UHGV virus genome: UHGV-0823586
From: a virus
Length of the DNA stretch: 12,846 nt
Reading direction: 5' to 3' (one strand)
Part shown: one piece after another, positions 1 to 12,846 of the stretch
Position numbering within the stretch: position 1 is the first letter of the stretch
How the letters are laid out: each line of letters begins with the position of its first letter
The notes under the pieces: model-generated
The model's input: only the letters and a program-made list of their open reading frames with translations
Told to the model about the DNA's origin: nothing
Databases searched by the model: none
Program-made: the position numbers and the translations under genes

Positions 1-1
1 G

Positions 2-40
2 CTGACTATTTATCAAATAGATAACCTTGCTAATAGTCAG
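2..40. repeat. Nested inverted repeat at the window edge: outer 9-bp arms CTGACTATT (2-10) and AATAGTCAG (32-40), inner arms TTATC (10-14) and GATAA (20-24)
   Basis: Read directly: the reverse complement of 2-10 equals 32-40, and an inner 5-bp inverted repeat with a 5-nt spacer lies inside the loop. The region is AT-rich and upstream of the 499-aa ORF. A possible sigma70-like -10 TAATAT lies at 59-64. Confidence 0.3.
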
Positions 41-96
41 ATGAAAAGCAAAGGAAGTTAATATTAGAACAGCTTGAGCCAGCTATTAATAACACC

Positions 97-1596
97 ATGG
101 CCCAGCTATATAACGGTGAGGTTCCAGATTATATACCGGCTCAGGAGACCATCATCAGGGGGTATGGAAAAAACGCAGATAAAATAATCAATCAACTGGA
201 TATAGCGATTGATAACGCGAGAATATTCCAGGCAATTCAGTATTTGCCTCCTTCTCAGCAGCAAGAAGAAATGCAGAAAGTGAAGCCTGAGGTTAACGAT
301 CCTCACTATGCGTTAAAACTCGATGCTTACGGAAAATTGTCTGCATTGCTTCAGAGATCAAATGAAGCAATTCAGGCGCAACGGGATTCACGCAGATTCA
401 ATGAGGCGCTGACAATAGGTGAAAAATTAGACCCAAGCAACAAGTCAATGCAGAAAGCTGCTGATTACACAGAAATGGCGCAGAACTTTCGTATTAATGA
501 TGTCTCCACTCATGATGGGGTTGTTCGGCTTGTGGCTCAGACTGGCATAATGCCTTCGCAGGTCATCACGCAGCTTTCAGCAGTATCCCGATCCAGCAAT
601 CAGGAAGTGGTTAAAAATGCGGCGGAACTGTTTAGTCGGTTATATGAAACAGACAATGCATCTATTGGAAATATGCCGAAGGATATGCAGGGTTTTTATC
701 TGACTGTTAAGCAACTAACTGATTCTGGCATGTCTGCTGATGCGGCTATCGAGCAGGCGCAGAACCTTACGTACAACCAGACCGATGCTCTTAAAGCTCA
801 ATTGGCATCAACGCAGAGTTCAAAAGAGTACAAAAATGATCGCAGCAAGGCGATGAATTCTGCTGTCAGCAATATGGCGCAGTGGTTCCGTTGGGATCCG
901 TCTGCGGATGACCAGACGCCGGAAGCAGCTAGATTCCGTAATGACTATCAGACGCTGTATGACATTAACTACCGCGTTGCTGGTGGTAACGCTGACGTAG
1001 CGAAGCAAATGACCAACCAGCAGATAGCCCGCACCTGGAGTATCAGCGAGGTTAACGGAGAAGCGCAGTTTATGAAATATGCACCGGAGGCGCTTTATCA
1101 ATATGGGCCGTCAGGCTGGCAGGCGGCGCAGTGGAAAGCTGAAAAAGAACGGCTGATGTACGGTGAGCGCAAAGAGATTATAACAACCAGTCCGACGTTG
1201 CTTGGGATCACGTCAGGTAATGCTCCTGTAGTTGAGACAAAAACCCCTGAGAGTCGTATTAATGGAGAATTATTCATAACCCCTGACGTGTTAACACCCC
1301 GTAATGGTGATTACGCCATTATGGTAAGAACTAAGGATAAAAATGGCATCGATCGGGTCCAGCCGTTTTATAACAAACATGGGCGTCCTATGCGTTGGGA
1401 ACCATCACTAGAAGATTGGGAACCTTATAAGGAAATGCAGCAGGAACGGGAGCAGTACGAGCAGGAAGAAATTATGCGTGGACAGGCTATACGAAACTTC
1501 AAAGACAAGCATCGCGCTCTGGATGAGCAGTATCAGCGCCTGCATAACGAACGTATGGACAAATTTAAAGATTACTTTTCGTGGGGATCTAAATAA
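97..1596 (+). CDS. Hypothetical protein, 499 aa, Gln/Glu-rich and probably largely alpha-helical; possibly a virion internal/ejection protein or an accessory gene
   Basis: Long uninterrupted ORF with an ATG at 97 and in-frame stops upstream at 22-24 and 34-36. It has no convincing Shine-Dalgarno sequence. Its stop TAA (1594-1596) overlaps the ATG of the next gene (TAATG). I recognise no enzymatic motif and no P-loop. Confidence 0.55.
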   Translation: MAQLYNGEVPDYIPAQETIIRGYGKNADKIINQLDIAIDNARIFQAIQYLPPSQQQEEMQKVKPEVNDPHYALKLDAYGKLSALLQRSNEAIQAQRDSRRFNEALTIGEKLDPSNKSMQKAADYTEMAQNFRINDVSTHDGVVRLVAQTGIMPSQVITQLSAVSRSSNQEVVKNAAELFSRLYETDNASIGNMPKDMQGFYLTVKQLTDSGMSADAAIEQAQNLTYNQTDALKAQLASTQSSKEYKNDRSKAMNSAVSNMAQWFRWDPSADDQTPEAARFRNDYQTLYDINYRVAGGNADVAKQMTNQQIARTWSISEVNGEAQFMKYAPEALYQYGPSGWQAAQWKAEKERLMYGERKEIITTSPTLLGITSGNAPVVETKTPESRINGELFITPDVLTPRNGDYAIMVRTKDKNGIDRVQPFYNKHGRPMRWEPSLEDWEPYKEMQQEREQYEQEEIMRGQAIRNFKDKHRALDEQYQRLHNERMDKFKDYFSWGSK

Positions 1597-2432
1597 TGCC
1601 AGTTTATGCACAAGCTGAAGATCTTAATAACGGACTGATCCCGTCAGGTAATATTTTGCCGGAACAAACTGGGTTTGATGTTGCCCCTCCGGAAGGGGCT
1701 AATCCTGAGCCATTGCCACCTGAGCCTTCCGTATGGGGGGCTGCAATGCGACAGAACAATATTCTGTCTGGTTTTTTCCGCCCAGCCAGACAGTTTGAAC
1801 CGGTCGAGGGTTATAACCCATATGCTGATAAAAATGAGTTGCACGGTTATGAATACTGGGGGGCGAAATTTGCAGATTCCCGATCGCCAGAGGAAACGGC
1901 GTGGATTAAGCAGCAGATAGATGATGAAAATGAAGACAGACGTTTATTGTCTGATGCTGGCGTAGTTGGAACCATTGCCAGTATTGCTGCGGGAATGGAT
2001 CCGGTTACTGTTGCGTCAATGTTTATTCCCGGTGCTCAAGGAGGGGCACTGGCGCGTATTGGCTCACAGATTGCGATTGGTGCTGCCGGTACAGCATTAA
2101 GCGAGGTTGTACTGAATAATCAGCAAATAACACGCTCATGGGGTGAAAGTGCCGCTCACGTTGCAGCGGGTGCGATGATGAGCGGCGTGTTTGCCAGTGC
2201 TGGTGTTGCGCTTTCGCCATCCGTCCGGGCTGCAGCCACGCGTGAGGTTGCTGATGCTCTTGATAATATGAGCATTACATCAGCGACTGACAGGGCTGCC
2301 GCTTCGCTTTCTGATGGTGGTAGTGTTGGTGCTATGAAAATTGATACAGCGACTCTGGATGATTTAACCCCTGTTTCCGGTGGGTGGGTTGGAAAGGCTG
2401 CATGGAAGATTTCGGATAAATTCTTCTTCTGA
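1596..2432 (+). CDS. Hypothetical protein, 278 aa, with Gly/Ala-rich hydrophobic segments (glycine-zipper-like); possibly membrane-active
   Basis: ATG at 1596 is coupled to the upstream stop, with GGGGA 8 nt upstream. The central region (GVVGTIASIAAGMDPVTVASMFIPGAQGGALARIGSQIAIGAAGTALS ... AAGAMMSGVFASAGVALS) has repeated small-residue spacing typical of membrane-inserting segments. The stop TGA is at 2430-2432, inside the 3' end of the convergent minus-strand gene. Confidence 0.55.
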   Translation: MPVYAQAEDLNNGLIPSGNILPEQTGFDVAPPEGANPEPLPPEPSVWGAAMRQNNILSGFFRPARQFEPVEGYNPYADKNELHGYEYWGAKFADSRSPEETAWIKQQIDDENEDRRLLSDAGVVGTIASIAAGMDPVTVASMFIPGAQGGALARIGSQIAIGAAGTALSEVVLNNQQITRSWGESAAHVAAGAMMSGVFASAGVALSPSVRAAATREVADALDNMSITSATDRAAASLSDGGSVGAMKIDTATLDDLTPVSGGWVGKAAWKISDKFFF

Positions 2433-3467
2433 TATTTCACCTTTACGTGGATCACCGACTTTGGCGATCAGTTTATCCACGTTACCCATCCCCCAGTTAT
2501 ATGCTGCTCCGGCCAATATTTCGGAGCCGTACTTACCATACAGTTGATTTACATAGTCACTGGCAAGCATTTCATGCTGTTGTTCGTCCGTAGGGTTGTA
2601 TTCAACGCCACGTTTGGCCGCCAGTTCTTTCCCTGTGCCCGGCATTAACTGGTATTTCCCCTGGGCCCTCTCTCCAGAAGATGTTTTCGGTCCTTCAAGA
2701 ATACTACCATCAGGATTAAAATGACGATCACCTGATTCAACAAGGCGTATGGCACGCATGTCCATGCCTCCAGAATCATTTTTCTGAAACTGACCATTTA
2801 ACCATCCTTCCGGATTAGCAGCGGCATAATTCTTCGCCCGCATTTCTGTGGCACTGCGATCATCACTTTCTATTTCTTCCAGAATGCGTTCTTGTGACCA
2901 TCCCCTGGCTGCTCCATATCTGGCAATGGCTACCATTCTGGAATTTCTGGCTAAAGTGGCAGTTTGCGGGTCATTCCAGGCATCCGCTTCATTTTGTATC
3001 CATAATTTTCTCGTTGCCTGATATTGCTCATCTTCATAGGCATTTGTCTGCCCTATCTCATGTCTGAGAACTCCAGTACTGAACTGAATTTTCTGTGTTC
3101 TGGCTTGTTGCAAAAACATATTTCTTGCTGCTTCATCAGTCAATGAAGCAGCTATTTCTTCCACATCCTGATCAAATCCAGATATGTACTCTTGCCCCTT
3201 ACCAATCGCATTTTTGCCTTGTTGTGCATAAAAACCGGTTTGAGGGTTATAAAGACGTTCATTGCTGCGCTGATTAAGCTGAAGGATGGCATCCTGAGAC
3301 AATGCAACATTCGCTTTCTGCCTGGCTTCACCATATGCCACCGCATACTGATCTGCGACATTCGCCAGCACCTGACCTGCTTGAGGAACATCGAAGGTCT
3401 GAAAACCACCGGTTTGCACACCACGACTTTGCACCTGGCGTCCGGATGTAGTAGGAACAACAGGCAT
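2364..3467 (-). CDS. Internal virion protein with a C-terminal soluble lytic transglycosylase (SLT-like) domain
   Basis: Motifs read in the translation: catalytic-type E-S-G (RLVESGDRHF), then GKYQLMPGT, then AYNWG, in the order expected for family-1 lytic transglycosylases. The first codon in the ORF track is TTG; the ATG is at 3465-3467 and overlaps the upstream stop (TGATG). It sits where the T7 gp16 transglycosylase would be expected. Confidence 0.7.
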   Translation of the reverse strand: MPVVPTTSGRQVQSRGVQTGGFQTFDVPQAGQVLANVADQYAVAYGEARQKANVALSQDAILQLNQRSNERLYNPQTGFYAQQGKNAIGKGQEYISGFDQDVEEIAASLTDEAARNMFLQQARTQKIQFSTGVLRHEIGQTNAYEDEQYQATRKLWIQNEADAWNDPQTATLARNSRMVAIARYGAARGWSQERILEEIESDDRSATEMRAKNYAAANPEGWLNGQFQKNDSGGMDMRAIRLVESGDRHFNPDGSILEGPKTSSGERAQGKYQLMPGTGKELAAKRGVEYNPTDEQQHEMLASDYVNQLYGKYGSEILAGAAYNWGMGNVDKLIAKVGDPRKGEISEEEFIRNLPCSLSNPPTGNRG

Positions 3468-4033
3468 CAATAACCTCCTATTTTGAATCGGGAGTCAGAA
3501 TTCATAAAACCTGAGTTAGATAACATTGGCGTGTTTCCTTGCTTACTAATCGGATTGATACTTCCGCCACCCAACTTATATGCACCGTATGCTTTTAGTG
3601 GTGCCGTTAACAAAGTGCTGGTCATCGATGATTTAGCAGCCGACTGAGCAGCAGCCCCCTGTGCCTGAGCATTCATTCCCTGAACCTGATACCCATATGC
3701 CTCACGCTGAGCATTATTCACTGTCGTTAACGCATCAAGAGTGCCGAACTGAGCATTATCCGCAAAAACGTCAAGAGCTGTTCCGCTACTTAATTCCGCA
3801 CCGGTAGCCCCCATAGTGGCCGCCGCAGTGCCTGAGCGTTGACGCATTTCACGACGACGCTGATCCGCTTCAATATTCCCACGATTGATTGAATCCTGTG
3901 CCTGAGCTTCAGCAATTTCAGCATTCCGATCAGCTATGGCTGACTGGTATTTTGCCTGCTTGCTCTGGCTGTACATTGACGCGGCTGTGGATGCCACTGT
4001 GACGGCAACCAAAGCGATGGCTGGGTTACACAT
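3467..4033 (-). CDS. Putative internal virion/ejection protein with an N-terminal transmembrane segment (T7 gp14 positional analogue)
   Basis: ATG at 4031-4033 overlaps the upstream stop (TAATG). The N-terminus is hydrophobic (NPAIALVAVTVASTAAS) and is followed by a Gln/Ala-rich, probably helical region. The gene lies between the tubular proteins and the transglycosylase protein. Confidence 0.55.
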   Translation of the reverse strand: MCNPAIALVAVTVASTAASMYSQSKQAKYQSAIADRNAEIAEAQAQDSINRGNIEADQRRREMRQRSGTAAATMGATGAELSSGTALDVFADNAQFGTLDALTTVNNAQREAYGYQVQGMNAQAQGAAAQSAAKSSMTSTLLTAPLKAYGAYKLGGGSINPISKQGNTPMLSNSGFMNSDSRFKIGGY

Positions 4034-4497
4034 TATTTTCTCTCCATGTGAAATCTGTGGAAATTAAGACCAAGAGCACCATAAGGCGCGGCTTCTTCAA
4101 GCCTGAATCCAAGCCAGTGCAGCCATGCTTTGGCAACATGGTTTCGCTCGTCGACGTAGTTTTCCAAGCGCGGATAAACTGCCAGCATCTGCTGCAATAC
4201 AGGGCGGCAGTGGCGCAGAAATGTCTTCTGATATTTTTCAATACGGCTGGTCCCGACCAGCCATGGCGTACCATTGCCACCGATCATTGACGCCGGAGAT
4301 ACACCAAACATGGTTACCAGCTCTCCGTTCGCGAACCCTGACCAGGCCATAGTCGCAGTGCGCAGACCAACACGCAGCGCATCTTCGGTAGTCATCAGCG
4401 ATACCGCATACAGTTCGTCAATATCAGCCTGACGAACATCCGGCAAAATCATCTGAAGATGCTCTTCGGTAGCGGGAATAATTCGAACATCGATCAT
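4033..4497 (-). CDS. Hypothetical virion-associated protein, 154 aa (T7 gp13 positional analogue)
   Basis: ATG at 4495-4497 overlaps the stop of the 823-aa gene (TGATG). The call rests on position in the operon only; I recognise no motif. Confidence 0.5.
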   Translation of the reverse strand: MIDVRIIPATEEHLQMILPDVRQADIDELYAVSLMTTEDALRVGLRTATMAWSGFANGELVTMFGVSPASMIGGNGTPWLVGTSRIEKYQKTFLRHCRPVLQQMLAVYPRLENYVDERNHVAKAWLHWLGFRLEEAAPYGALGLNFHRFHMERK

Positions 4498-6968
4498 CAG
4501 AATCCCCCAACAGTAAGGCGAGGAATAACGGCAAGAACAGACAGCGGCAACGGGTCAAGCTGACGGATTTTTACACGTCCGTTTTTGCCCCAGTTACTGT
4601 CCAGTTTCACTTCTACTTTTCCGGTAGCATCATCAACAGGATCATCGTAGAACTCGAATTCACGCTGTGGATATTCGTACCATTTACCGCCGGGCGTAGT
4701 CGCCCAGATGCCGCGGCTGGCATTCACAACCAGAGTAACGGACGGGATCACCTGTTTTTTGTCCAGCAGCGTTTCCTGTCCGTTAATGTTGATATCCAGT
4801 GTTTCGAATTCAGCAGTTATTGGCAGGCCGATGTGAACTACAGCCCCCGGAGATTCCAGCGTGACGGCACCTCCGGAAACCACTTTCTGTGGTTCCACGT
4901 TCGCATCAGAGAGAATGTTTACGGTCTGGCCTTCAAGATGAGACAGGCCTCCAAATGTCCGGCGCGCCATCTGCCAGTTCGTGGTGGCCACATTCCTGAG
5001 GGATGGCGGGACGTTCCTGTTAGCACGAACCACTACAGCGGTATTGCTGGTTACAGAAATAATGTCGCAACGTAATTCTTTTGACACCTCATCACCAGTA
5101 TCAGGATCAGTTCCGGTATAAGGGAACTGTAGTTGCGCGCCGACATCACTACTGGTGAAGTACGCACCACCAGAAACACTGATTGTATATTCCGCGCGGT
5201 AATCCCATTCACCAGAACCACCAGTGATGGTCATCGTTCTGTCAGACGTATTTCTTCCATCATAGCTAAGGCCAGAATCAACAAAGAAAGCATCTTCATC
5301 GCTGGTAAATAAACGGCTGGACAGTCGCTCGATGTATCTCACTGTTTGCCCGTTAACGGTTCGGTTAACGACGAAATACACCGCATCTTCATTTCCTTCG
5401 CTGATACTGCATGTGCTTTCATATTTTCCGGTACTGGATTGTGGTGCCCATGCAAAAACCTGCTGATCACGCAAATAGGTCATCACCAGTAATTTACCGT
5501 CATCACGAATGCAGAAGGCGCTGGAGTAAGGGACAATAGAGAAGCACCAGTCAACAATACTGTGCTTCTGAAAAAGATGATTGGCAAGGATGGTCAGGTC
5601 GTTCCCCTGATAGCCGTCAACATCGAATGAGTAGGCCAGATCACGGACAACACTGCCTTTCTCCTGGACGAACAGAGCAATATTCGCCACGGCAATTGGT
5701 GGGACATTGCTCGAGCCATTTGATCCCTGAGAGCTGAATGCAAATGATGATGGGGTAAGCACTTTGTTCTGGTCGCCAGTGATGACGTACTCACCTCCGG
5801 AAGTCAGCGCCACCAGCGAACCAACATCAATCAGGTGACGGATCTCATTAACCTGACGCCCGGCATAGGTGTAGATAATTCTGTCGTCATCCTGCGTAGG
5901 ATTGCTTTTGCCAAAATCCTTATAATCCCCGGTACGGCTGGCCCAGATAGTCTGAGGAAACGCAGTCGATGCGGCGAAGTAAAGACGTTGTTGATAATAA
6001 ACAACAGTGCCAGGATAACCATTAACACTGTTCCAGGCATATTTAGCCCATTTATAGCTGGCATTATCCTCGCCAACTACCTGCGAAGGGATATAGGAAA
6101 TCACCTCGGCAGTTGCAGTAGTTCCATTTGCAGCAGTGATACGGGCAATGCCAAAACCACTGTGCAGATATTCCCACTCAATGCCAGTATCATCATCACC
6201 GGATCCGCCCCAGCCATCCCATGATGTGCCTTCTGTATGCGAAGGGCGCAAAGTACCTGTTTTGCCTGCTTTAACGGCGCGATAGTAGTTACTGTCTGCT
6301 CGGCGAATATCGCCAATCGACGTACTCTTACTGGTTTCCCATACCGGCACAGAATCCACTGCAGGCTGTTCCAGATAGAACAATTTGCCTACCTGCTCCG
6401 CGCCAAAAATAGAGGCGCTTGCCGTTAGCGTAATTGTCCCGGTGCTGGCGCTGGCATAAACCGTCACTGACTCGTCAATATTGATATCTTCAAATGGCCC
6501 GTTCTTCGTTACCACATCAACCAGTTGCCAGTTGTCATGCGCATAGCGGCGCAACTCTTTCGGCGGGTATGCCGGATGAACCAGCGTAAGCACGTCTGCG
6601 CTTTGCGTGAATTTAATTCGGAACAGATCGGCTTCAGTATATGGCGTGGAAATTTCATAAATAACATTGCTGCTGTTCAGCACCAACGCACCATCTTTGA
6701 TAACGCGCATGTACTGGTGTCCGAACTCCAGAGCATAAGTCTGAACCGTCGAGAACTGGAACGGGATCAGGCGGCATTTCCGATTTGGATATTTGGCGGC
6801 ACCGACAAAACGCGTACCAGGTCGATTCTCAACGCCGCCATACTGCCGCACGATAAAGTTATCGCACTTGCGCAATGCCACCTGGTACTTCGCCATGTCG
6901 ATACGTCCGTACAACGACGGTCCAATCTCACCACCAGCAAAGCTGGGCTGGATCCAACTGATAGCCAT
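4497..6968 (-). CDS. Tail tubular protein B / nozzle (T7 gp12-like)
   Basis: The 823-aa ORF directly follows the gp11-like gene with a TGATG overlap. Its size is close to T7 gp12 (about 794 aa) and the gp11-gp12 order is conserved. The assignment is by size and synteny, not by sequence alignment. Confidence 0.65.
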   Translation of the reverse strand: MAISWIQPSFAGGEIGPSLYGRIDMAKYQVALRKCDNFIVRQYGGVENRPGTRFVGAAKYPNRKCRLIPFQFSTVQTYALEFGHQYMRVIKDGALVLNSSNVIYEISTPYTEADLFRIKFTQSADVLTLVHPAYPPKELRRYAHDNWQLVDVVTKNGPFEDINIDESVTVYASASTGTITLTASASIFGAEQVGKLFYLEQPAVDSVPVWETSKSTSIGDIRRADSNYYRAVKAGKTGTLRPSHTEGTSWDGWGGSGDDDTGIEWEYLHSGFGIARITAANGTTATAEVISYIPSQVVGEDNASYKWAKYAWNSVNGYPGTVVYYQQRLYFAASTAFPQTIWASRTGDYKDFGKSNPTQDDDRIIYTYAGRQVNEIRHLIDVGSLVALTSGGEYVITGDQNKVLTPSSFAFSSQGSNGSSNVPPIAVANIALFVQEKGSVVRDLAYSFDVDGYQGNDLTILANHLFQKHSIVDWCFSIVPYSSAFCIRDDGKLLVMTYLRDQQVFAWAPQSSTGKYESTCSISEGNEDAVYFVVNRTVNGQTVRYIERLSSRLFTSDEDAFFVDSGLSYDGRNTSDRTMTITGGSGEWDYRAEYTISVSGGAYFTSSDVGAQLQFPYTGTDPDTGDEVSKELRCDIISVTSNTAVVVRANRNVPPSLRNVATTNWQMARRTFGGLSHLEGQTVNILSDANVEPQKVVSGGAVTLESPGAVVHIGLPITAEFETLDININGQETLLDKKQVIPSVTLVVNASRGIWATTPGGKWYEYPQREFEFYDDPVDDATGKVEVKLDSNWGKNGRVKIRQLDPLPLSVLAVIPRLTVGGF

Positions 6969-7573
6969 CAGGACAACCTCGCAATGGTAAACTCGTCAAC
7001 CGGTGGCTGTGGTTCCTGTGATTCATTCTGGCTATGCGAGCCAGCACTAAGAATCACGCGATTGTACATATTGAGGGCAAACGTACCGAGGTCTGCATTC
7101 CCAGTCAGCGCCATGTTAATAGCTGCCGCAAGACGCCAGGCCAACGCCTCCATAAAAATGGCATCAAACATGTTCACATCTGTAACGCGAGAGACATACT
7201 TGAGCCATGCCTGAGGCTGGTCTGTGTAGATCAACTTTCCTGTTCCGTTGGTGTCTGCACCAACTTCGTACTGAACGCGCATTGCTGCTGTTGGATTGCG
7301 TACACCAGGAAGCATAATTTCAGTAATGCGCAGACAATCTGACGGGTACTGGTACGCATATTCCCAGTCAGGCGGTGGATTGCTCGTATCTGCAAGCGCC
7401 ACGCGTTTGGTAGCAAAGTTCCAGTCAAAATCAGAAAGCACAGTATCACGGCAGGCCTCAAAGTGCAGCGAACATTCCCCCGCTTCCTTGCTGGCTTCCG
7501 TCAGGCTGTTAATGCTGCGGCTGTTGCCAATATTGGACAGCGCACGATTACAGATCTCTACTACAGAGGCCAT
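6968..7573 (-). CDS. Tail tubular protein A / adaptor (T7 gp11-like)
   Basis: About 201 aa from the ATG at 7571-7573 (the ORF track starts at a GTG 3 nt upstream). A GGAGGT Shine-Dalgarno lies 5 nt upstream. The N-terminal pattern (ICNRALSNIGNSRSINSLTE ... WNFATKRVAL) resembles the N-terminus of T7 gp11 as I recall it. Size and position before the large nozzle gene match. Confidence 0.65.
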   Translation of the reverse strand: MASVVEICNRALSNIGNSRSINSLTEASKEAGECSLHFEACRDTVLSDFDWNFATKRVALADTSNPPPDWEYAYQYPSDCLRITEIMLPGVRNPTAAMRVQYEVGADTNGTGKLIYTDQPQAWLKYVSRVTDVNMFDAIFMEALAWRLAAAINMALTGNADLGTFALNMYNRVILSAGSHSQNESQEPQPPVDEFTIARLS

Positions 7574-7896
7574 CACTCACCTCCGTTACCGTACAGAGTT
7601 TCAGCCGCTGATTTTTCTACATCCCCGGAAACAGGAGCGATCGCCATATCAGTGATCTGCAGATCGGCGCTGCGATTAACGCCATCGTCAGTTTCTCTGG
7701 CAGACAGGCCTCGAATAACAGCCTTTGCAGTTATCATCACTTCCGTTCCGACGCCCTTAGGTTGCGCCTTCAGCTTATTCAATGTGTCGTTATTCAGCGT
7801 GATGCACAGCCCCCACGGGTATTCATCGCGAGTTCTGGTTTCTCCGCTCTCATCCTGGTAGCTGTCAGTGCCGGTTTTGAGGTTTACGAGTTCCAT
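7573..7896 (-). CDS. Hypothetical small protein, about 107 aa, first gene after the terminator hairpin
   Basis: ATG at 7894-7896 with AGGAG 5 nt upstream; the ORF track starts at a GTG at 7902. Its stop overlaps the start of the gp11-like gene (TGATG). Confidence 0.5.
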   Translation of the reverse strand: MELVNLKTGTDSYQDESGETRTRDEYPWGLCITLNNDTLNKLKAQPKGVGTEVMITAKAVIRGLSARETDDGVNRSADLQITDMAIAPVSGDVEKSAAETLYGNGGE

Positions 7897-7912
7897 ATAC
7901 ACTCCTGCAATA

Positions 7913-7930
7913 AAGGGGCCGAAGCCCCTT
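7913..7930 (-). terminator. Rho-independent terminator hairpin on the minus strand: 7-bp stem AAGGGGC/GCCCCUU with a UUCG tetraloop, followed by UAUU
   Basis: Read directly: 7913-7919 pairs perfectly with 7924-7930 around loop 7920-7923. On the minus-strand RNA the stem is followed by a U-rich run (UUUAUU, counting the closing stem Us). It lies between the stop of the 111-aa gene (7947) and the Shine-Dalgarno of the 107-aa gene. Confidence 0.6.
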
Positions 7931-7946
7931 GTCTGATCCGCGAGGC

Positions 7947-8282
7947 TTACACGCCCAGTTCTTTACGCTTATCTGCGATCTTCTCGCGGAGCGTTTCGGC
8001 TTTGGCGTTATGGTGTGGCTTCTGGTTAAAGAGCAATTCGTACTCTTCACGGAGCTTATCCAGTTCACCATCATCTGACACATCGTTGATGATTTTGGTG
8101 CTGGTTGCTGCCATTGACACCTTTCCTGCAACTTTTGCTTTTGCCTGTCTGGCTGCATCGTTAACAGGTTCCAGTGCGCTACCAGGCTCACCTTCGTATT
8201 CGATTTCTGCCCCCTCCGGCCACAGAGTGTTATGGATATGAGAGAGGCGCAGAACGCGGTATCTTGGTTTCTCACCTGACAT
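7947..8282 (-). CDS. Hypothetical small protein, about 111 aa
   Basis: ATG at 8280-8282 with AAGGTG 6 nt upstream; the ORF track starts at a GTG at 8291. Charged, helical-looking C-terminus. No motif recognised. Confidence 0.5.
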   Translation of the reverse strand: MSGEKPRYRVLRLSHIHNTLWPEGAEIEYEGEPGSALEPVNDAARQAKAKVAGKVSMAATSTKIINDVSDDGELDKLREEYELLFNQKPHHNAKAETLREKIADKRKELGV

Positions 8283-8292
8283 CAATATCACC

Positions 8293-8730
8293 TTAACCAG
8301 TTACTTTTGAGCGGATCGGATACGGCGTATTGGCATCAACATCCAGACTGATACCCGCAGTGAATTTGCCGGCCGTTAGTGGGCCAGTTGCGACGGAGTA
8401 GTTAACACGCAGATATCGCTGAACACCGGCAGGCACCTTTGCAGAAACAACTCGTTTACCTGCTGTCAGGGTATCCTTTGCCAGTGCGCCACTATCATAA
8501 ATAGTGGACCATGAGCTGTTATTCTCACTCGTCTGCAACTGGATGTTTACAGTTTCCTCACCACTTGCCGTGGCGGCTTCGTTAACCAGCACCCAAAACT
8601 CAAGCGGATAACCCACGCCGATATCACGACGTTTTCCGTCAATTGGACCGAGATCGATTACGTCAGTAGAAGCCGCGGTATTCGTAACCGCCTGAGCTTC
8701 GGAGAACATCAACAGTTTGTCGGTGATCAT
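8293..8730 (-). CDS. Hypothetical Ser/Thr-rich, probably beta-rich protein, 145 aa; possible capsid decoration or head-associated protein
   Basis: ATG at 8728-8730 with GGAG 7 nt upstream. It lies immediately downstream of the capsid gene. The composition (TAG/TGP/SVATG repeats) suggests an Ig-like or decoration-type fold, but this is inference only. Confidence 0.5.
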   Translation of the reverse strand: MITDKLLMFSEAQAVTNTAASTDVIDLGPIDGKRRDIGVGYPLEFWVLVNEAATASGEETVNIQLQTSENNSSWSTIYDSGALAKDTLTAGKRVVSAKVPAGVQRYLRVNYSVATGPLTAGKFTAGISLDVDANTPYPIRSKVTG

Positions 8731-8745
8731 CTTCTTTCTCCATTA

Positions 8746-8765
8746 GTGGGTCTGTTACGACCCAC
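8746..8765 (-). promoter_or_regulatory. Intercistronic stem-loop (7-bp stem GTGGGTC/GACCCAC, 6-nt loop) between the capsid gene and the next gene; possible RNA processing or stabilising element
   Basis: Perfect inverted repeat 8746-8752 / 8759-8765 inside the 51-nt gap after the capsid stop. It has no U-tract, so it is not a canonical terminator. Confidence 0.4.
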
Positions 8766-8781
8766 AGGTTAATAACAGGCG

Positions 8782-9774
8782 TTACACCACGCGGGCTTCT
8801 GTTTCCAGAAGCGCATCAGTTTCACGGATTGGTACACCACGGAATGAAGTCCACCACTCGCCTTCTGTCTCTTTTACGCTGATCGCCAGAGATGTTTTCT
8901 CCAGAGATTGCAGATCAAGAGCCTGGCCTACAGTGCGGTTCATGTAGAACACCGGGCGACCCATGCCACGATTTGGAATGCGATGCAGTGCTTTAACCAT
9001 CAACTTCGCAATATCTGCGGCAGAGGAAGGTTCTGAAAGATTGCTGACATCGATGTTTGCAATGCGAACAACATAACGCCAGTCACGCAGAGCAAGTCCG
9101 TTGTCCCATTTGTAATGGGTACGGTAGCCTTCGTACTTGCCGCCATTCGCATCTTCCAGTGTCACCTGGCCTTTATCTTCCATCTGGATGCCAGCCTTCT
9201 GCCCTTTCGGGAAGATGCCATGCACGGTGTTTTCGCCCCACACCACTAACCAGATTGAGGTGTTATCTGTACCCGTGCCACCAGCATCAATGATGTTCTG
9301 AGCATTACCCGCAGACAGGCTGGAATAGCGGGAGGACAGTCCCATAAACTGCTGAGGGTTAACGCTGGAATCACCATAAAACAGTGTCTGCGCCATCTGC
9401 TGATTCATCGCTTCAATAAATGCGCGGTCTTCAGACAGGCGGAATTCGGCAGTATTACCGTTCAGATCAGCCAGTGACTTATCGACTTCAGCATAGGTTT
9501 CCAGCATGCCAACGTAATCGGTTACCTGCACTGTGGTTGATTTGCTTGGCTGTACGCCATAGTTCAGCAAACGCCAGGTAGCTGAAGGTAAACCAGAACG
9601 AATGGTGGTTCGGTGTCCGGTAGGAAGGTTCCCTTCGACAAAAGGCATATCCTGAAGGATCGGGTTTGTTTGACCGAGAAGCTCGATAATCTTATCGACT
9701 TTCCCGTTTGGATCGACGCGCTTACCCCAGTCAGCCAGCGTTAGCGCAGTTAAGCCTTTAACAGCCATTGTCAT
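8782..9774 (-). CDS. Major capsid protein (putative)
   Basis: The 330-aa ORF follows the scaffold-like gene and precedes a stem-loop, the classic scaffold-then-capsid arrangement. The true start may be the second ATG at 9766-9768, which has better spacing to GAGAGG. The call is by size and synteny; the sequence does not obviously resemble T7 gp10. Confidence 0.65.
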   Translation of the reverse strand: MTMAVKGLTALTLADWGKRVDPNGKVDKIIELLGQTNPILQDMPFVEGNLPTGHRTTIRSGLPSATWRLLNYGVQPSKSTTVQVTDYVGMLETYAEVDKSLADLNGNTAEFRLSEDRAFIEAMNQQMAQTLFYGDSSVNPQQFMGLSSRYSSLSAGNAQNIIDAGGTGTDNTSIWLVVWGENTVHGIFPKGQKAGIQMEDKGQVTLEDANGGKYEGYRTHYKWDNGLALRDWRYVVRIANIDVSNLSEPSSAADIAKLMVKALHRIPNRGMGRPVFYMNRTVGQALDLQSLEKTSLAISVKETEGEWWTSFRGVPIRETDALLETEARVV

Positions 9775-9782
9775 TTCCTCTC

Positions 9783-10478
9783 TTATTTGCCATAGAGCAC
9801 TTCGGCCGCACTACGCTGGCCTTCATTACCACCGGTGACCATGCCATCTTCAGACATCGCCTTTCCGATTCTCACGAACGTTTTGACCAGATCAGGGTGA
9901 TTACCCAGCCCGGTGGTGTTCAGATATTCTTTGAGTTCAGGTGTCCCGAACTGGTCAAGCGCACGCTGTGCGACGCTAAGGTTAGAAATCAACTTGCCGC
10001 CACCGATTTCTTTGTCAGCTTTTACATCCGCAGCCCACTGCTCGGTTGTTTTCTGCCAGGCTTCTGCCTGGCGCTGCTGAACACCTGCCAGAATCTTCGG
10101 ATAAGCATCAACCAGCTTTTGCGCTTGCTCGTTGGTCAGGTTAAGTTCTCGCGCCACCGGCTCGAATTCCTTCAACGCTTCTGTATCCAGCTCTACGCCT
10201 TCGGCAGCCTGAAACTCGTACTTCTCAGGCGCACCCTCTGGTTTATCGCCGTCCTTTTTTTCACCCTGCTTATCGTTTTCAGGCTTTTTGTCATCAGCAG
10301 GTTTATCGCCATCAGCAACAGGTTGTGGCTTATCACCTTCCGGTTGTGATGGATCACCAACTGGAGCAGGGTTATCACCTGCAGGCGCTGACGGTTCTGA
10401 CGCAGCCGGAGCTGCTCCACCATCGACTGGTTGCTCATTGCAAAGACGGCGATACAGCAAACGCTCAAATAAATTCAT
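9783..10478 (-). CDS. Scaffolding protein (putative), with a Pro/Asp/Lys/Glu-rich low-complexity N-terminal region and a helical C-terminal domain
   Basis: ATG at 10476-10478 with AGGAG 5 nt upstream; the ORF track starts at a GTG at 10484. It lies between the portal and capsid genes. The acidic low-complexity linker (PAPAASEPSAPAGDNPAPVGDPSQPEGDKPQP...) is typical of scaffold proteins. Confidence 0.55.
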   Translation of the reverse strand: MNLFERLLYRRLCNEQPVDGGAAPAASEPSAPAGDNPAPVGDPSQPEGDKPQPVADGDKPADDKKPENDKQGEKKDGDKPEGAPEKYEFQAAEGVELDTEALKEFEPVARELNLTNEQAQKLVDAYPKILAGVQQRQAEAWQKTTEQWAADVKADKEIGGGKLISNLSVAQRALDQFGTPELKEYLNTTGLGNHPDLVKTFVRIGKAMSEDGMVTGGNEGQRSAAEVLYGK

Positions 10479-10480
10479 GA

Positions 10481-10777
10481 TCACTCCTGTTCACTGGCCT
10501 CTTTGGCCATCTTCAAATACTGTTCAGGGCAATGCGCCATAACGCGCTGAAACAGTTCCAGCGCCAGATTGCGTTGCCCCTCATTAAATGCCATTGCCAT
10601 AGCGTCCATCGGTGAGATAGCGGAAAACACACGGCCTTTCTCCAGCACCGACCAGACAACGCGACGCCCCTGTTCACTGCTCATGACAAAGCAAATGTCA
10701 TCAATTTCACGCTGTGCCATGTCACGTTGCTTACGGGCGTTTTCTTCTTTCAGTTGATCGTCTTCGTAATCTGTCAT
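10481..10777 (-). CDS. Hypothetical small acidic protein, 98 aa, between portal and scaffold
   Basis: ATG at 10775-10777 overlaps the portal stop (ATGA). Charged and helical-looking. Function unknown. Confidence 0.5.
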   Translation of the reverse strand: MTDYEDDQLKEENARKQRDMAQREIDDICFVMSSEQGRRVVWSVLEKGRVFSAISPMDAMAMAFNEGQRNLALELFQRVMAHCPEQYLKMAKEASEQE

Positions 10778-12452
10778 TGTGATTGCCCACCCTGACCACT
10801 AACTGCATTCGCCATAGCTGACAAAACACTCGGATCCGAAGTTTTAGCTTCGCTTAGCGTCTTGGCACCCTGTGCCGCCGCCATCCCCATCGCCATCATT
10901 TGTTGCTGCTGTTGTTGCTGTGCCCGTTGCTGGCGAGCCTGCTCAACCTGTTCCTGCGGAACAATGACGGTTGGAGACACTCCGGACATATCAGCGAATG
11001 CATCGATCGCCTGATCAACGTTGAGTTTGTCGAGAGCTTCTGGTTTCGCTTGCGCAAGTTGACCAATGAAGTTGACCGTAGACGCCAGACTGGACAGGCC
11101 GATAGACTTCTGCGCCTGAGCCATGACGGAAATGTATTCGACCTTCAGGGGCATACCTTCCATCACGTCAGGCGGTGGCGGCAGCATGTTTTTACGCACC
11201 ATCATCGAGAAAGCGCGGTCAATGAGAGGATTAAGACATTCGTCGTTCAGACGCTCCAGAACCGGCCCAACATCAGAAGTTTTTCTTCTTTCATTTCGAT
11301 CACCGCTTCAACAGGCATCGAGCGGGTATTGATGTTCTGCAACATCATGAACAGATCGACAAAGTAGGCGCTGTTAATGATTTGACGGGTGTCCTGAATG
11401 TCTGCCACCAAATCTGCTGTACTGGGGTTAACCAGATAAGCAGGCCTGAAACCATCCTGACCAGTAATCAGATCGATATACGTGATGTCGCCAGGAAGAA
11501 GGGAGGCACGCTGATTCTTGAGGGAAGTCGGAGCAACCATCGGCGGATTGGTGGCTTTATCAATCAACTGCGACTTGCGCTTCTGGAGAAGCTGCAATGC
11601 CTTAACAGGTCCAAGCGCCAGCATACCCGGGCATGATGATCCATAAACATCTTCGCCGTTAACTTCCCAGCGCGGAGCCATAATTGGAAACTCATCGAAT
11701 CCGGACTCACGCAACAACTTGTCGTTATCGCCACCAACCTCGTAATAAACCGATTTGAATGGCTTGTTCTTGCTATCCAGCTTCGATGTATCGCGGTCAA
11801 TGTTCGGGTAAACCGAATGCATCACTTCAATCCACTTCTCGTAGGTTCCGCTTTCCCACATGCTTTTTACGGATTCGCTGACGTTATTTAGCCCGAACTC
11901 CTGAACAAGCTGACGAACAGTCATAGAGAACTTGCGAAAACAGGTGTCCACACTGCCACGAGGTGAGTTAGCCAGGTAGTAACTGCCTATCGGGAATGGC
12001 ATTGTGCGAATGATGTCCTCGTCATCCTCCAGCACTGCCATTGCACCAGTGCTGTATGTGCCGAGGCTTCCGTATAACTGCGGCAGCGACTGATAGAGAT
12101 TCGACTTATTGAACATATCGTTCATGCGGTTCTGCACCGCCTCAAGCCACAACTTAACAGGGCCATAATCCATCATTTCAGGATCTGGCGTAGCCAGGCG
12201 AAACCACGGACGCGCGGGGCTTGTGATGCCTGACATCATGCCGCTGGCGAGAGTGCGCGCCGCCATAGTCCCGGTCGAATCAATAATGCGTGTATTGCGT
12301 CGATCGTTACGGTTGACCTCAGAAGTCAGAAAGCGGGAACCACGCGGGTTGATGTAATCACTCAACTCGCGCCAGTGCGGCTCGAACGACTGACGCTCGC
12401 TTTCAAGTTGTGCGAACTGTTTGTTCAATCGCTCTTTAGTTGTTTCCGCCAT
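10774..12452 (-). pseudogene. Portal (head-to-tail connector) protein, T7 gp8-like, interrupted by a frameshift near 11280-11284
   Basis: Two adjacent ORFs (12452..11247, 401 aa; 11205..10774, 143 aa) belong to one gene. The downstream frame is open from 11307, and a single extra A in the A5 run (T5 on the plus strand, 11280-11284) joins them into one protein of about 545 aa. The C-terminal part (QQRAQQQQQQQMMAMGMAAAQG...) resembles the T7 gp8 C-terminus as I recall it. ATG at 12450-12452 with GGAG upstream. Confidence 0.8.
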
Positions 12453-12466
12453 TTCAATGACTCCGG

Positions 12467-12673
12467 TTACTGACCAAGCAGCGTTTTACCGCTGGTATTA
12501 GCAGTTGATGTGTCGCCCTGAGAACCGGTAAGCAGCGTAGAACTACGACCAGCAGCAGCGCGACGGCGACGAGTTTCTTCGTCGCGGGCATCAACAACGG
12601 CGGCATCCTGCTCCTGTGGTGCTGCCTGAACTTCTGGTGTTGCAGGCACTGATGGTGAGCTACCCATGCACAT
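12467..12673 (-). CDS. Hypothetical small protein, 68 aa, Ala/Arg-rich low complexity, immediately upstream of the portal gene
   Basis: ATG at 12671-12673 with GGAG 8 nt upstream. The spacer sequence is identical to the one in front of the portal gene. Preferred over the overlapping 79-aa ORF (12454..12693), which starts at TTG and has a His/Cys/Leu-rich, noncoding-like composition. Confidence 0.4.
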   Translation of the reverse strand: MCMGSSPSVPATPEVQAAPQEQDAAVVDARDEETRRRRAAAGRSSTLLTGSQGDTSTANTSGKTLLGQ

Positions 12674-12741
12674 ATCAATGACTCCGTACGCAATTAAATT
12701 ATTACCAATTTAACCACATATGATTTATTTATCGTAGACAG

Positions 12742-12805
12742 TTGACATTTAACGCGCGAATTATTACCTTTCAGGTAACCAAAGAGTTCATTCCGGTTAC
12801 TAACC
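12742..12805. promoter_or_regulatory. Putative control region upstream of the minus-strand operon: TTGACA hexamer (12742-12747, plus strand) and GGTNACC-type palindromes (GGTAACC 12774-12780; GGTTACTAACC 12795-12805)
   Basis: AT-rich noncoding region. The palindromes and hexamer were read directly from the sequence. Promoter direction and function are not established. Confidence 0.25.
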
Positions 12806-12846
12806 TGACTGGCTTGTCGTTAAATTGAACAGGTGGAGTGAGCTTT

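What the first reader, a model, noticed from the sequence alone, without database searches (positions are those of the whole stretch)
10774..12452. Portal gene split by a 1-nt indel in a homopolymer run
The N-terminal 401-aa ORF stops at 11247-11249, while the frame encoding the C-terminal 143 aa is open from 11307. The only homopolymer in the 60-nt overlap is T5 at 11280-11284 (A5 on the coding strand, GAAGAAAAACTT). Adding one A gives a continuous portal of about 545 aa (...IEMKEEK-TSDVGPVLERLNDECLNPLIDRAFSMMVRKNML...). This is either a sequencing or assembly error, a real inactivating mutation in a decaying prophage, or, least likely, -1 ribosomal slippage on the A AAA Lys codon.
Basis: seen in the sequence. 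Interest (0 to 1): 0.55.

Follow-up and report, generated by a model that had tools for sequence, protein, structure and literature searches.

The report
Portal gene broken by one-base deletion
An ordinary phiV10/epsilon15-type prophage portal gene is split because this one sequence record lacks a single G, most likely a sequencing or assembly error rather than biology.

Summary
The split is really in the sequence. A 401-aa ORF (11247-12452, minus strand) and a downstream frame open from 11307 together cover one T7-gp8-type portal (PF12236). Relatives show that the missing base is one G of a GGGG run, now GGG at 11266-11268, not the A5 run at 11280-11284. Restoring that G gives a 559-aa portal (...MKEEKLLMLGPVLERL...). 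That protein is an exact known E. coli allele seen on 103 contigs.

The deletion is private. It is absent from about 520 complete E. coli genomes, 15 phage records, 10 plasmids and 176 viral or metagenome loci. A short-read contig (L187, run ERR975277) matches all 12,846 bases of the window with zero substitutions and has an intact portal. It differs from the window only by this deletion, a second one-base deletion at position 43, and an inversion of 1-2407.

Three disruptive lesions with no substitutions point to an error in the record (about 0.8). A very recent real mutation is possible (about 0.17). There is no slippery heptamer, no stimulatory fold and no conservation, so recoding is about 0.01. 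The finding is ordinary and of low interest.

The parts
11247..12452 (-). N-terminal portal fragment as written: 401-aa ORF. Residues 1-396 are native portal sequence; the last five (RFWSV) are out of frame before the stop at 11247-11249.
   Evidence: PF12236 E 3e-144, model 2-388 of 489. Alignment to intact portals.
11266..11268 (-). The lesion: GGG on the coding strand where every relative has four bases (GGGG, or GGGT in 5 loci). One base is missing, which shifts the frame after codon 396.
   Evidence: 178 of 178 aligned relatives have the extra base. The deleted allele is absent from complete E. coli genomes, phages, plasmids, and IMG/VR, metagenome and GTDB contigs.
10774..11265 (-). C-terminal portal coding sequence, now in the -1 frame: residues 397-559 of the intact protein (PVLERLNDE...GGQSQ) plus the stop. 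The listed 143-aa ATG ORF (10774-11205) is its tail.
   Evidence: PF12236 model 384-488, E 2e-36.
11280..11284 (-). It is unchanged relative to intact relatives, so it is not the lesion.
   Evidence: GAAGAAAAACTT is identical in the window, L001 and phiV10.
10481..10777 (-). Downstream Bbp19-family gene, intact, with its start overlapping the portal stop as in relatives.
   Evidence: The exact protein is in the public collection on at least 1000 contigs.
12467..12673 (-). Upstream small gp3-like gene (68 aa), intact.
   Evidence: The exact protein is a known allele.
43..43 (+). Second private one-base deletion (GATAGAAAAG reads GATGAAAAG), not in a homopolymer. It frameshifts the C-terminal part of the 905-aa SLT-domain internal virion protein gene.
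1..2407 (+). Segment inverted relative to every relative. The junction lies at ATGGAA (2402-2407). It cuts the SLT-domain gene in two and truncates the 1004-aa downstream gene to 278 aa. Window position 1 lies 55 nt from the reciprocal breakpoint.
   Evidence: The junction is absent from complete E. coli genomes and IMG/VR.

Best explanation
The window carries the virion-gene module of an ordinary phiV10/epsilon15-type (Uetakevirus) E. coli prophage. Its portal gene is a standard single 559-aa T7-gp8-family portal. In this particular record one G of a GGGG run is missing, so the frame shifts after codon 396, five wrong residues follow, and translation stops. The most likely cause is an error in how this sequence was produced: a consensus or assembly error, or some other alteration of the record. 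In that case the real DNA probably has GGGG and an intact portal. Shown here: the position of the deletion, its absence from all relatives, and the existence of an otherwise identical sequence with an intact gene. Inferred: that the cause is technical rather than mutational.
For: (1) The gap maps to the GGGG run. (2) The deleted allele was not found anywhere else. About 520 complete E. coli genomes have the region, all with one extra base, and a 46-nt query spanning the site gives no match. It was also absent from 15 phage records, 10 plasmids, 120 IMG/VR and 56 metagenome loci, and exact-pattern scans. The 401-aa product is not among about 15 billion proteins. (3) Restoring the G gives exactly a known portal allele seen on 103 contigs. 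(4) L187, a short-read assembly of run ERR975277, matches the whole window with 0 mismatches and has intact 559-aa portal, 905-aa SLT and 1004-aa genes. (5) The only differences from L187 are three disruptive lesions: two one-base deletions and one inversion joined at 6 nt of microhomology. From my own knowledge, E. coli mutation-accumulation studies find base substitutions roughly ten times as frequent as small indels. Two indels plus an inversion with no substitution in 12.8 kb therefore fits a technical error profile better than natural divergence. (6) All 11 other genes are intact and encode exact known alleles.
Against: No reads or platform information are available, so the error has not been observed directly. 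Real portal frameshifts do occur in this prophage family. Five of 135 full-length portal regions in other assemblies carry disruptive lesions, and one of these (a C lost at CDS position 314) is shared by two independent assemblies. The deletion at position 43 is not in a homopolymer. An inversion joined at microhomology is also what a real illegitimate recombination would look like. A prophage already killed by the inversion could accumulate frameshifts neutrally.
Confidence: 0.8

Rival explanations
1. The deletion is real in the DNA. It would be a very recent inactivating mutation in a prophage that is starting to decay. The lysogen would make a 401-aa portal stub lacking the C-terminal 163 residues and could not assemble DNA-packaging-competent heads.
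For: Other members of this prophage family carry independent portal-disrupting lesions (5 of 135; one shared by L106 and L138), so such decay happens. The window has two further disruptive lesions in neighbouring virion genes, as expected for a dead prophage. The break lies in a strongly conserved stretch: EEKLLxLGPVxERL is kept in epsilon15 gp4 and in solved portal 8ck0. The stub would therefore not be functional.
Against: There are zero substitutions against L187 over 12,846 nt, yet three rare lesions. The allele is private among more than 700 relatives, and its product is absent from a 15-billion-protein collection. There is no sign of older decay: all 11 other genes are exact known alleles.
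Confidence: 0.17
2. The frameshift is real and is bypassed by -1 ribosomal slippage, either on A_AAA (GAA AAA C) or on G_GGC. This would yield enough full-length portal, since only 12 copies are needed per virion.
For: The downstream frame is -1 relative to the upstream ORF, and the two overlap by about 58 nt that contain an A5 run. From my own knowledge, tRNA-Lys is slippage-prone in E. coli.
Against: No 0-frame X XXY YYZ heptamer occurs in the overlap (read). The 121 nt around and downstream of the site fold no better than shuffles, with z = 0.00. There is no Rfam match. The flanking nucleotides are the same as in relatives that encode the portal in one ORF, so no recoding signal can have been selected. 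Slippage at A5 would also replace five conserved residues.
Confidence: 0.01
3. The portal is naturally encoded as two separate genes in this phage lineage.
For: None beyond the two ORFs themselves.
Against: Every relative examined has a single ORF across this point. The Pfam model and solved structure 8ck0 are continuous across it. Apparent 143-aa 'split' relatives turned out to be contig edges or a scaffold gap of N.
Confidence: 0.005

Closest known systems
Portal (head-to-tail connector) of Escherichia phage phiV10 (PhiV10p07) and Salmonella phage epsilon15 gp4, genus Uetakevirus
   Same: 98.8% nucleotide identity to phiV10 over 1.8 kb and about 77% to epsilon15. The gene order is the same: small gp3-like ORF, portal, Bbp19-like gene, protease, major capsid protein, Bbp16-like gene.
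   Different: Those genes are single ORFs of 559 and 556 aa. The window lacks one G and is split.
E. coli prophage portal allele P0061 (UniRef UPI00038F3B7E), and contig L187 from run ERR975277
   Same: The repaired window protein is identical to P0061. L187 is identical to the window at every aligned base.
   Different: Only the one-base deletion, plus the second deletion and the inversion elsewhere in the window.
Solved portal structure PDB 8ck0 (556 aa) and Pfam PF12236, the T7 gp8-type Head-tail_con family
   Same: Full-length sequence match: E 7e-179 to 8ck0 and E 1e-184 to PF12236 for the repaired protein.
   Different: As written, the window's product stops at model position about 388 of 489.
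Programmed -1 frameshifting (for example E. coli dnaX, or phage tail-chaperone G/GT genes)
   Same: Two overlapping ORFs in a -1 relationship.
   Different: No slippery heptamer, no stimulatory structure, no conservation of the two-ORF layout.
Other frameshifted portals in this prophage family (L012, L096, L106/L138, L182)
   Same: One-base deletions or a 49-nt deletion that disrupt the same gene.
   Different: They lie at different positions (CDS 256, 314, 986, 610). One is shared by two assemblies and so is probably real, whereas the window's lesion is unique.

Membership tests
T7 gp8-type portal (Pfam PF12236 Head-tail_con) | Full-length match to the family profile | tested here: met
   The two fragments cover model positions 2-388 and 384-488. 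The repaired protein covers 2-488 of 489, E 1.4e-184.
T7 gp8-type portal (Pfam PF12236 Head-tail_con) | Encoded as one continuous ORF of about 556-559 aa | tested here: not met
   The window as written is split after codon 396. Relatives are continuous.
Uetakevirus (phiV10/epsilon15-like) virion module | Conserved gene order around the portal and high nucleotide identity | tested here: met
Programmed -1 ribosomal frameshift site | Slippery heptamer X XXY YYZ in the 0 frame within the overlap | tested here: not met
   0-frame codons ATG AAA GAA GAA AAA CTT CTG ATG TTG GGC CGG TTC TGG AGC GTC contain no such heptamer.
Programmed -1 ribosomal frameshift site | Downstream stimulatory RNA structure | tested here: not met
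   MFE -25.5 kcal/mol against a shuffle mean of -25.49, z = 0.00. No Rfam family.
Programmed -1 ribosomal frameshift site | The two-ORF arrangement is conserved in relatives | tested here: not met
   0 of 178 aligned relatives and 0 of about 520 genomes.
Pseudogene in a decaying prophage | The lesion is present in the DNA and not only in the record | not testable with these tools
   No reads are available. An identical background with an intact gene exists in L187.
Pseudogene in a decaying prophage | Other lesions in neighbouring phage genes | tested here: met
   Deletion at position 43 and inversion of 1-2407.
Pseudogene in a decaying prophage | Accompanying neutral divergence (substitutions), or the lesion shared by descent | tested here: not met
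   0 mismatches to L187. The allele is private.
Sequencing or assembly artefact | Reads disagree with the consensus at the site | not testable with these tools
   Needs the source reads. Only indirect support is available: private indels with no substitutions.

The most novel reading that the evidence does not exclude
The one-base deletion is real, and the prophage still makes a little full-length portal by unprogrammed -1 slippage in the 58-nt overlap. Because only 12 copies are needed per virion, it would remain weakly viable.
Probability: 0.01. Interest if true: 0.35.

Novelty: not a real feature. Interest (0 to 1): 0.05.

Why it matters
It matters mainly for annotation quality. The gene should be annotated as a frameshifted or low-quality portal of a phiV10-like prophage, with the lesion placed at the G run. 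It should not be annotated as two genes or as a recoding site. If the deletion proved real, it would be one more example of routine prophage decay, which is already well known. The case also shows that choosing the longest homopolymer in the overlap can misplace a frameshift, and that comparison with relatives is needed to place it.

Tried and rejected
(1) A5 as the indel site: rejected, because that run is unchanged in intact relatives. (2) Relatives that appear to call the same 143-aa ORF as a separate gene: L004 and L006 are contig-edge effects, and L005 has a scaffold gap of N across the site. None shares the deletion. (3) Scans of GTDB representative genomes found neither the deleted allele nor the flanking pattern, so they were uninformative. 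I used a flank-only pattern from the window instead. (5) Looking up the lesion-specific products (401, 278, 499 and 368 aa) to find the source assembly: none is on record. (6) Literature searches for 8CK0, for phiV10 and epsilon15 portal, and for ERR975277 gave nothing useful. (7) A programmed invertible segment as the explanation for 1-2407: rejected. The junction lies inside structural genes with only 6 nt of microhomology and is absent elsewhere. (8) I did not run structure prediction, because the sequence evidence was already decisive.

Full report
**What is in the sequence**

All large genes from about 2.4 kb to the right end of the window lie on the minus strand. The ORF at 11247-12452 encodes 401 aa. 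The neighbouring frame is open from 11307 down to the stop at 10774-10776, and its first ATG, at 11205, gives the listed 143-aa ORF.

Both pieces hit Pfam PF12236, the T7 gp8-type head-to-tail connector. The N-terminal piece covers model positions 2-388 and the C-terminal piece covers 384-488 of 489.

**Where the lesion really is**

The region is 98.8-99.9% identical to E. coli prophages and to phages of the phiV10/epsilon15 group (genus Uetakevirus). In those, the portal is a single 1680-nt, 559-aa gene; in epsilon15 it is 556 aa.

Alignment shows exactly one gap in the gene. Relatives read GATGTTGGGGCCGGTT and the window reads GATGTTGGGCCGGTT. The missing base is one G of a GGGG run, now GGG at 11266-11268 (CCC on the plus strand). 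It is also not the only homopolymer in the overlap.

Restoring the G gives a 559-aa protein reading ...IEMKEEKLLMLGPVLERLNDE....

The stretch EEKLLxLGPVxERL is conserved in epsilon15 gp4 and in the solved portal 8ck0, which matches the repaired protein at E 7e-179. The break therefore lies in conserved core sequence. As written, the product keeps residues 1-396, adds RFWSV and stops, losing 163 C-terminal residues.

**How common the deleted allele is**

I found it nowhere else.
- About 520 complete E. coli genomes contain the region. The 60 best-ranked records all span one base more than the 200-nt query and none matches at 100%.
- A 46-nt query that can only seed across the deleted allele found nothing in 5,426 genomes.
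- 15 phage records and 10 plasmids lack it.
- 120 IMG/VR loci and 56 metagenome loci have GGGG (171) or the synonymous GGGT (5).
- In local alignments, 178 of 178 relatives carry the extra base.
- Exact-pattern scans for the deleted allele in viral, metagenome and GTDB contigs returned nothing.
- The 401-aa product is not among about 15 billion public proteins.

In contrast, the repaired 559-aa protein is an exact known allele seen on 103 contigs.

**The decisive comparison**

The window's major capsid protein is a rare allele, seen on 14 contigs. It led to L187, a short-read (Logan) assembly of run ERR975277.

L187 matches the entire window with zero mismatches. It encodes an intact 559-aa portal, a 905-aa SLT-domain internal virion protein and a 1004-aa downstream protein.

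The window differs from L187 in only three ways:
- the portal deletion;
- a second one-base deletion at window position 43 (GATAGAAAAG reads GATGAAAAG, not a homopolymer), which frameshifts the SLT-domain gene;
- an inversion of window 1-2407, joined at a 6-nt microhomology (ATGGAA, 2402-2407), which splits the SLT-domain gene and truncates the 1004-aa gene to 278 aa.

Window position 1 lies 55 nt short of the reciprocal breakpoint. The junction is absent from complete E. coli genomes and from IMG/VR. All 11 other genes are intact and encode exact known alleles.

**Interpretation**

There are three disruptive, private lesions and no substitution in 12.8 kb. From my own knowledge of E. coli mutation-accumulation studies, base substitutions outnumber small indels roughly ten to one in natural mutation. 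This profile therefore looks like a fault in how the record was produced (consensus indels plus a misjoin) rather than evolutionary divergence. I give this about 0.8.

The main rival is a real, very recent mutation in a prophage that is beginning to decay. It cannot be dismissed. Five of 135 full-length portal regions in other assemblies of this family carry different disruptive lesions, and one of them (a C lost at CDS position 314) is shared by two independent assemblies. The inversion junction also looks like plausible illegitimate recombination. I give this about 0.17.

Ribosomal slippage is very unlikely, about 0.01:
- there is no X XXY YYZ heptamer in the overlap;
- the surrounding RNA folds no better than shuffled sequence, z = 0.00;
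- there is no Rfam match;
- the flanking nucleotides are those of relatives that need no frameshift.

A naturally two-gene portal is refuted by all the comparative data. The few apparent 143-aa 'split' relatives were contig edges or a scaffold gap of N.

**Comparison with known systems, and verdict**

Apart from one missing base, the gene is a standard member of the T7 gp8-type portal family and of the Uetakevirus virion module. Nothing here is new. At most it is a routine prophage pseudogene, and most probably it is an artefact of the record.

The lesion should be annotated at 11266-11268. Only the source reads or Sanger sequencing can settle error against mutation. Interest is low.

Noticed in passing
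window 1-2407 (junction at 2402-2407): This 2.4-kb segment is inverted relative to every relative, including the otherwise identical L187. It is joined at a 6-nt microhomology (ATGGAA). It splits the 905-aa SLT-domain internal virion protein gene and truncates the 1004-aa downstream gene to 278 aa. Window position 1 lies 55 nt from the reciprocal breakpoint, which suggests that the contig end and the junction are linked (a misassembly or a chimeric molecule).
   Followed up: partly
window 43: A second private one-base deletion (an A lost from GATAGAAAAG), not in a homopolymer. It frameshifts the C-terminal part of the SLT-domain gene, so the ORF list shows a 499-aa ORF starting at 97 instead.
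   Followed up: yes
L187 (Logan contig ERR975277_57), whole window: An independent short-read assembly is identical to the window at all 12,846 aligned bases apart from the three lesions. It may be the same strain or clone as the window's source.
   Followed up: partly
L012, L096, L106, L138 and L182 (portal CDS positions 256, 986, 314, 314 and 610-658): Other public assemblies of this prophage family carry their own portal-disrupting deletions. The C lost at CDS position 314 is shared by an IMG/VR contig and a metagenome contig, so it is probably a real inherited pseudogene. About 4% of sampled portals are broken.
   Followed up: partly
L004 positions 1-31 (Logan SRR34729665_47): This contig starts with 31 nt unrelated to the portal and joins the portal sequence at TTCTGGAGCG, a few bases from the window's lesion. 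It is probably a k = 31 graph-edge or structural-variant breakpoint and is unrelated to the deletion.
   Followed up: no
window 2398-4029 compared with 4029-12846: The prophage is mosaic. The region from 4029 rightwards matches phiV10-type phages at about 98%. The gp14-like and SLT-domain region (2398-4029) matches only TL-2011b-type relatives, whose SLT protein is 905 aa rather than 837 aa.
   Followed up: no
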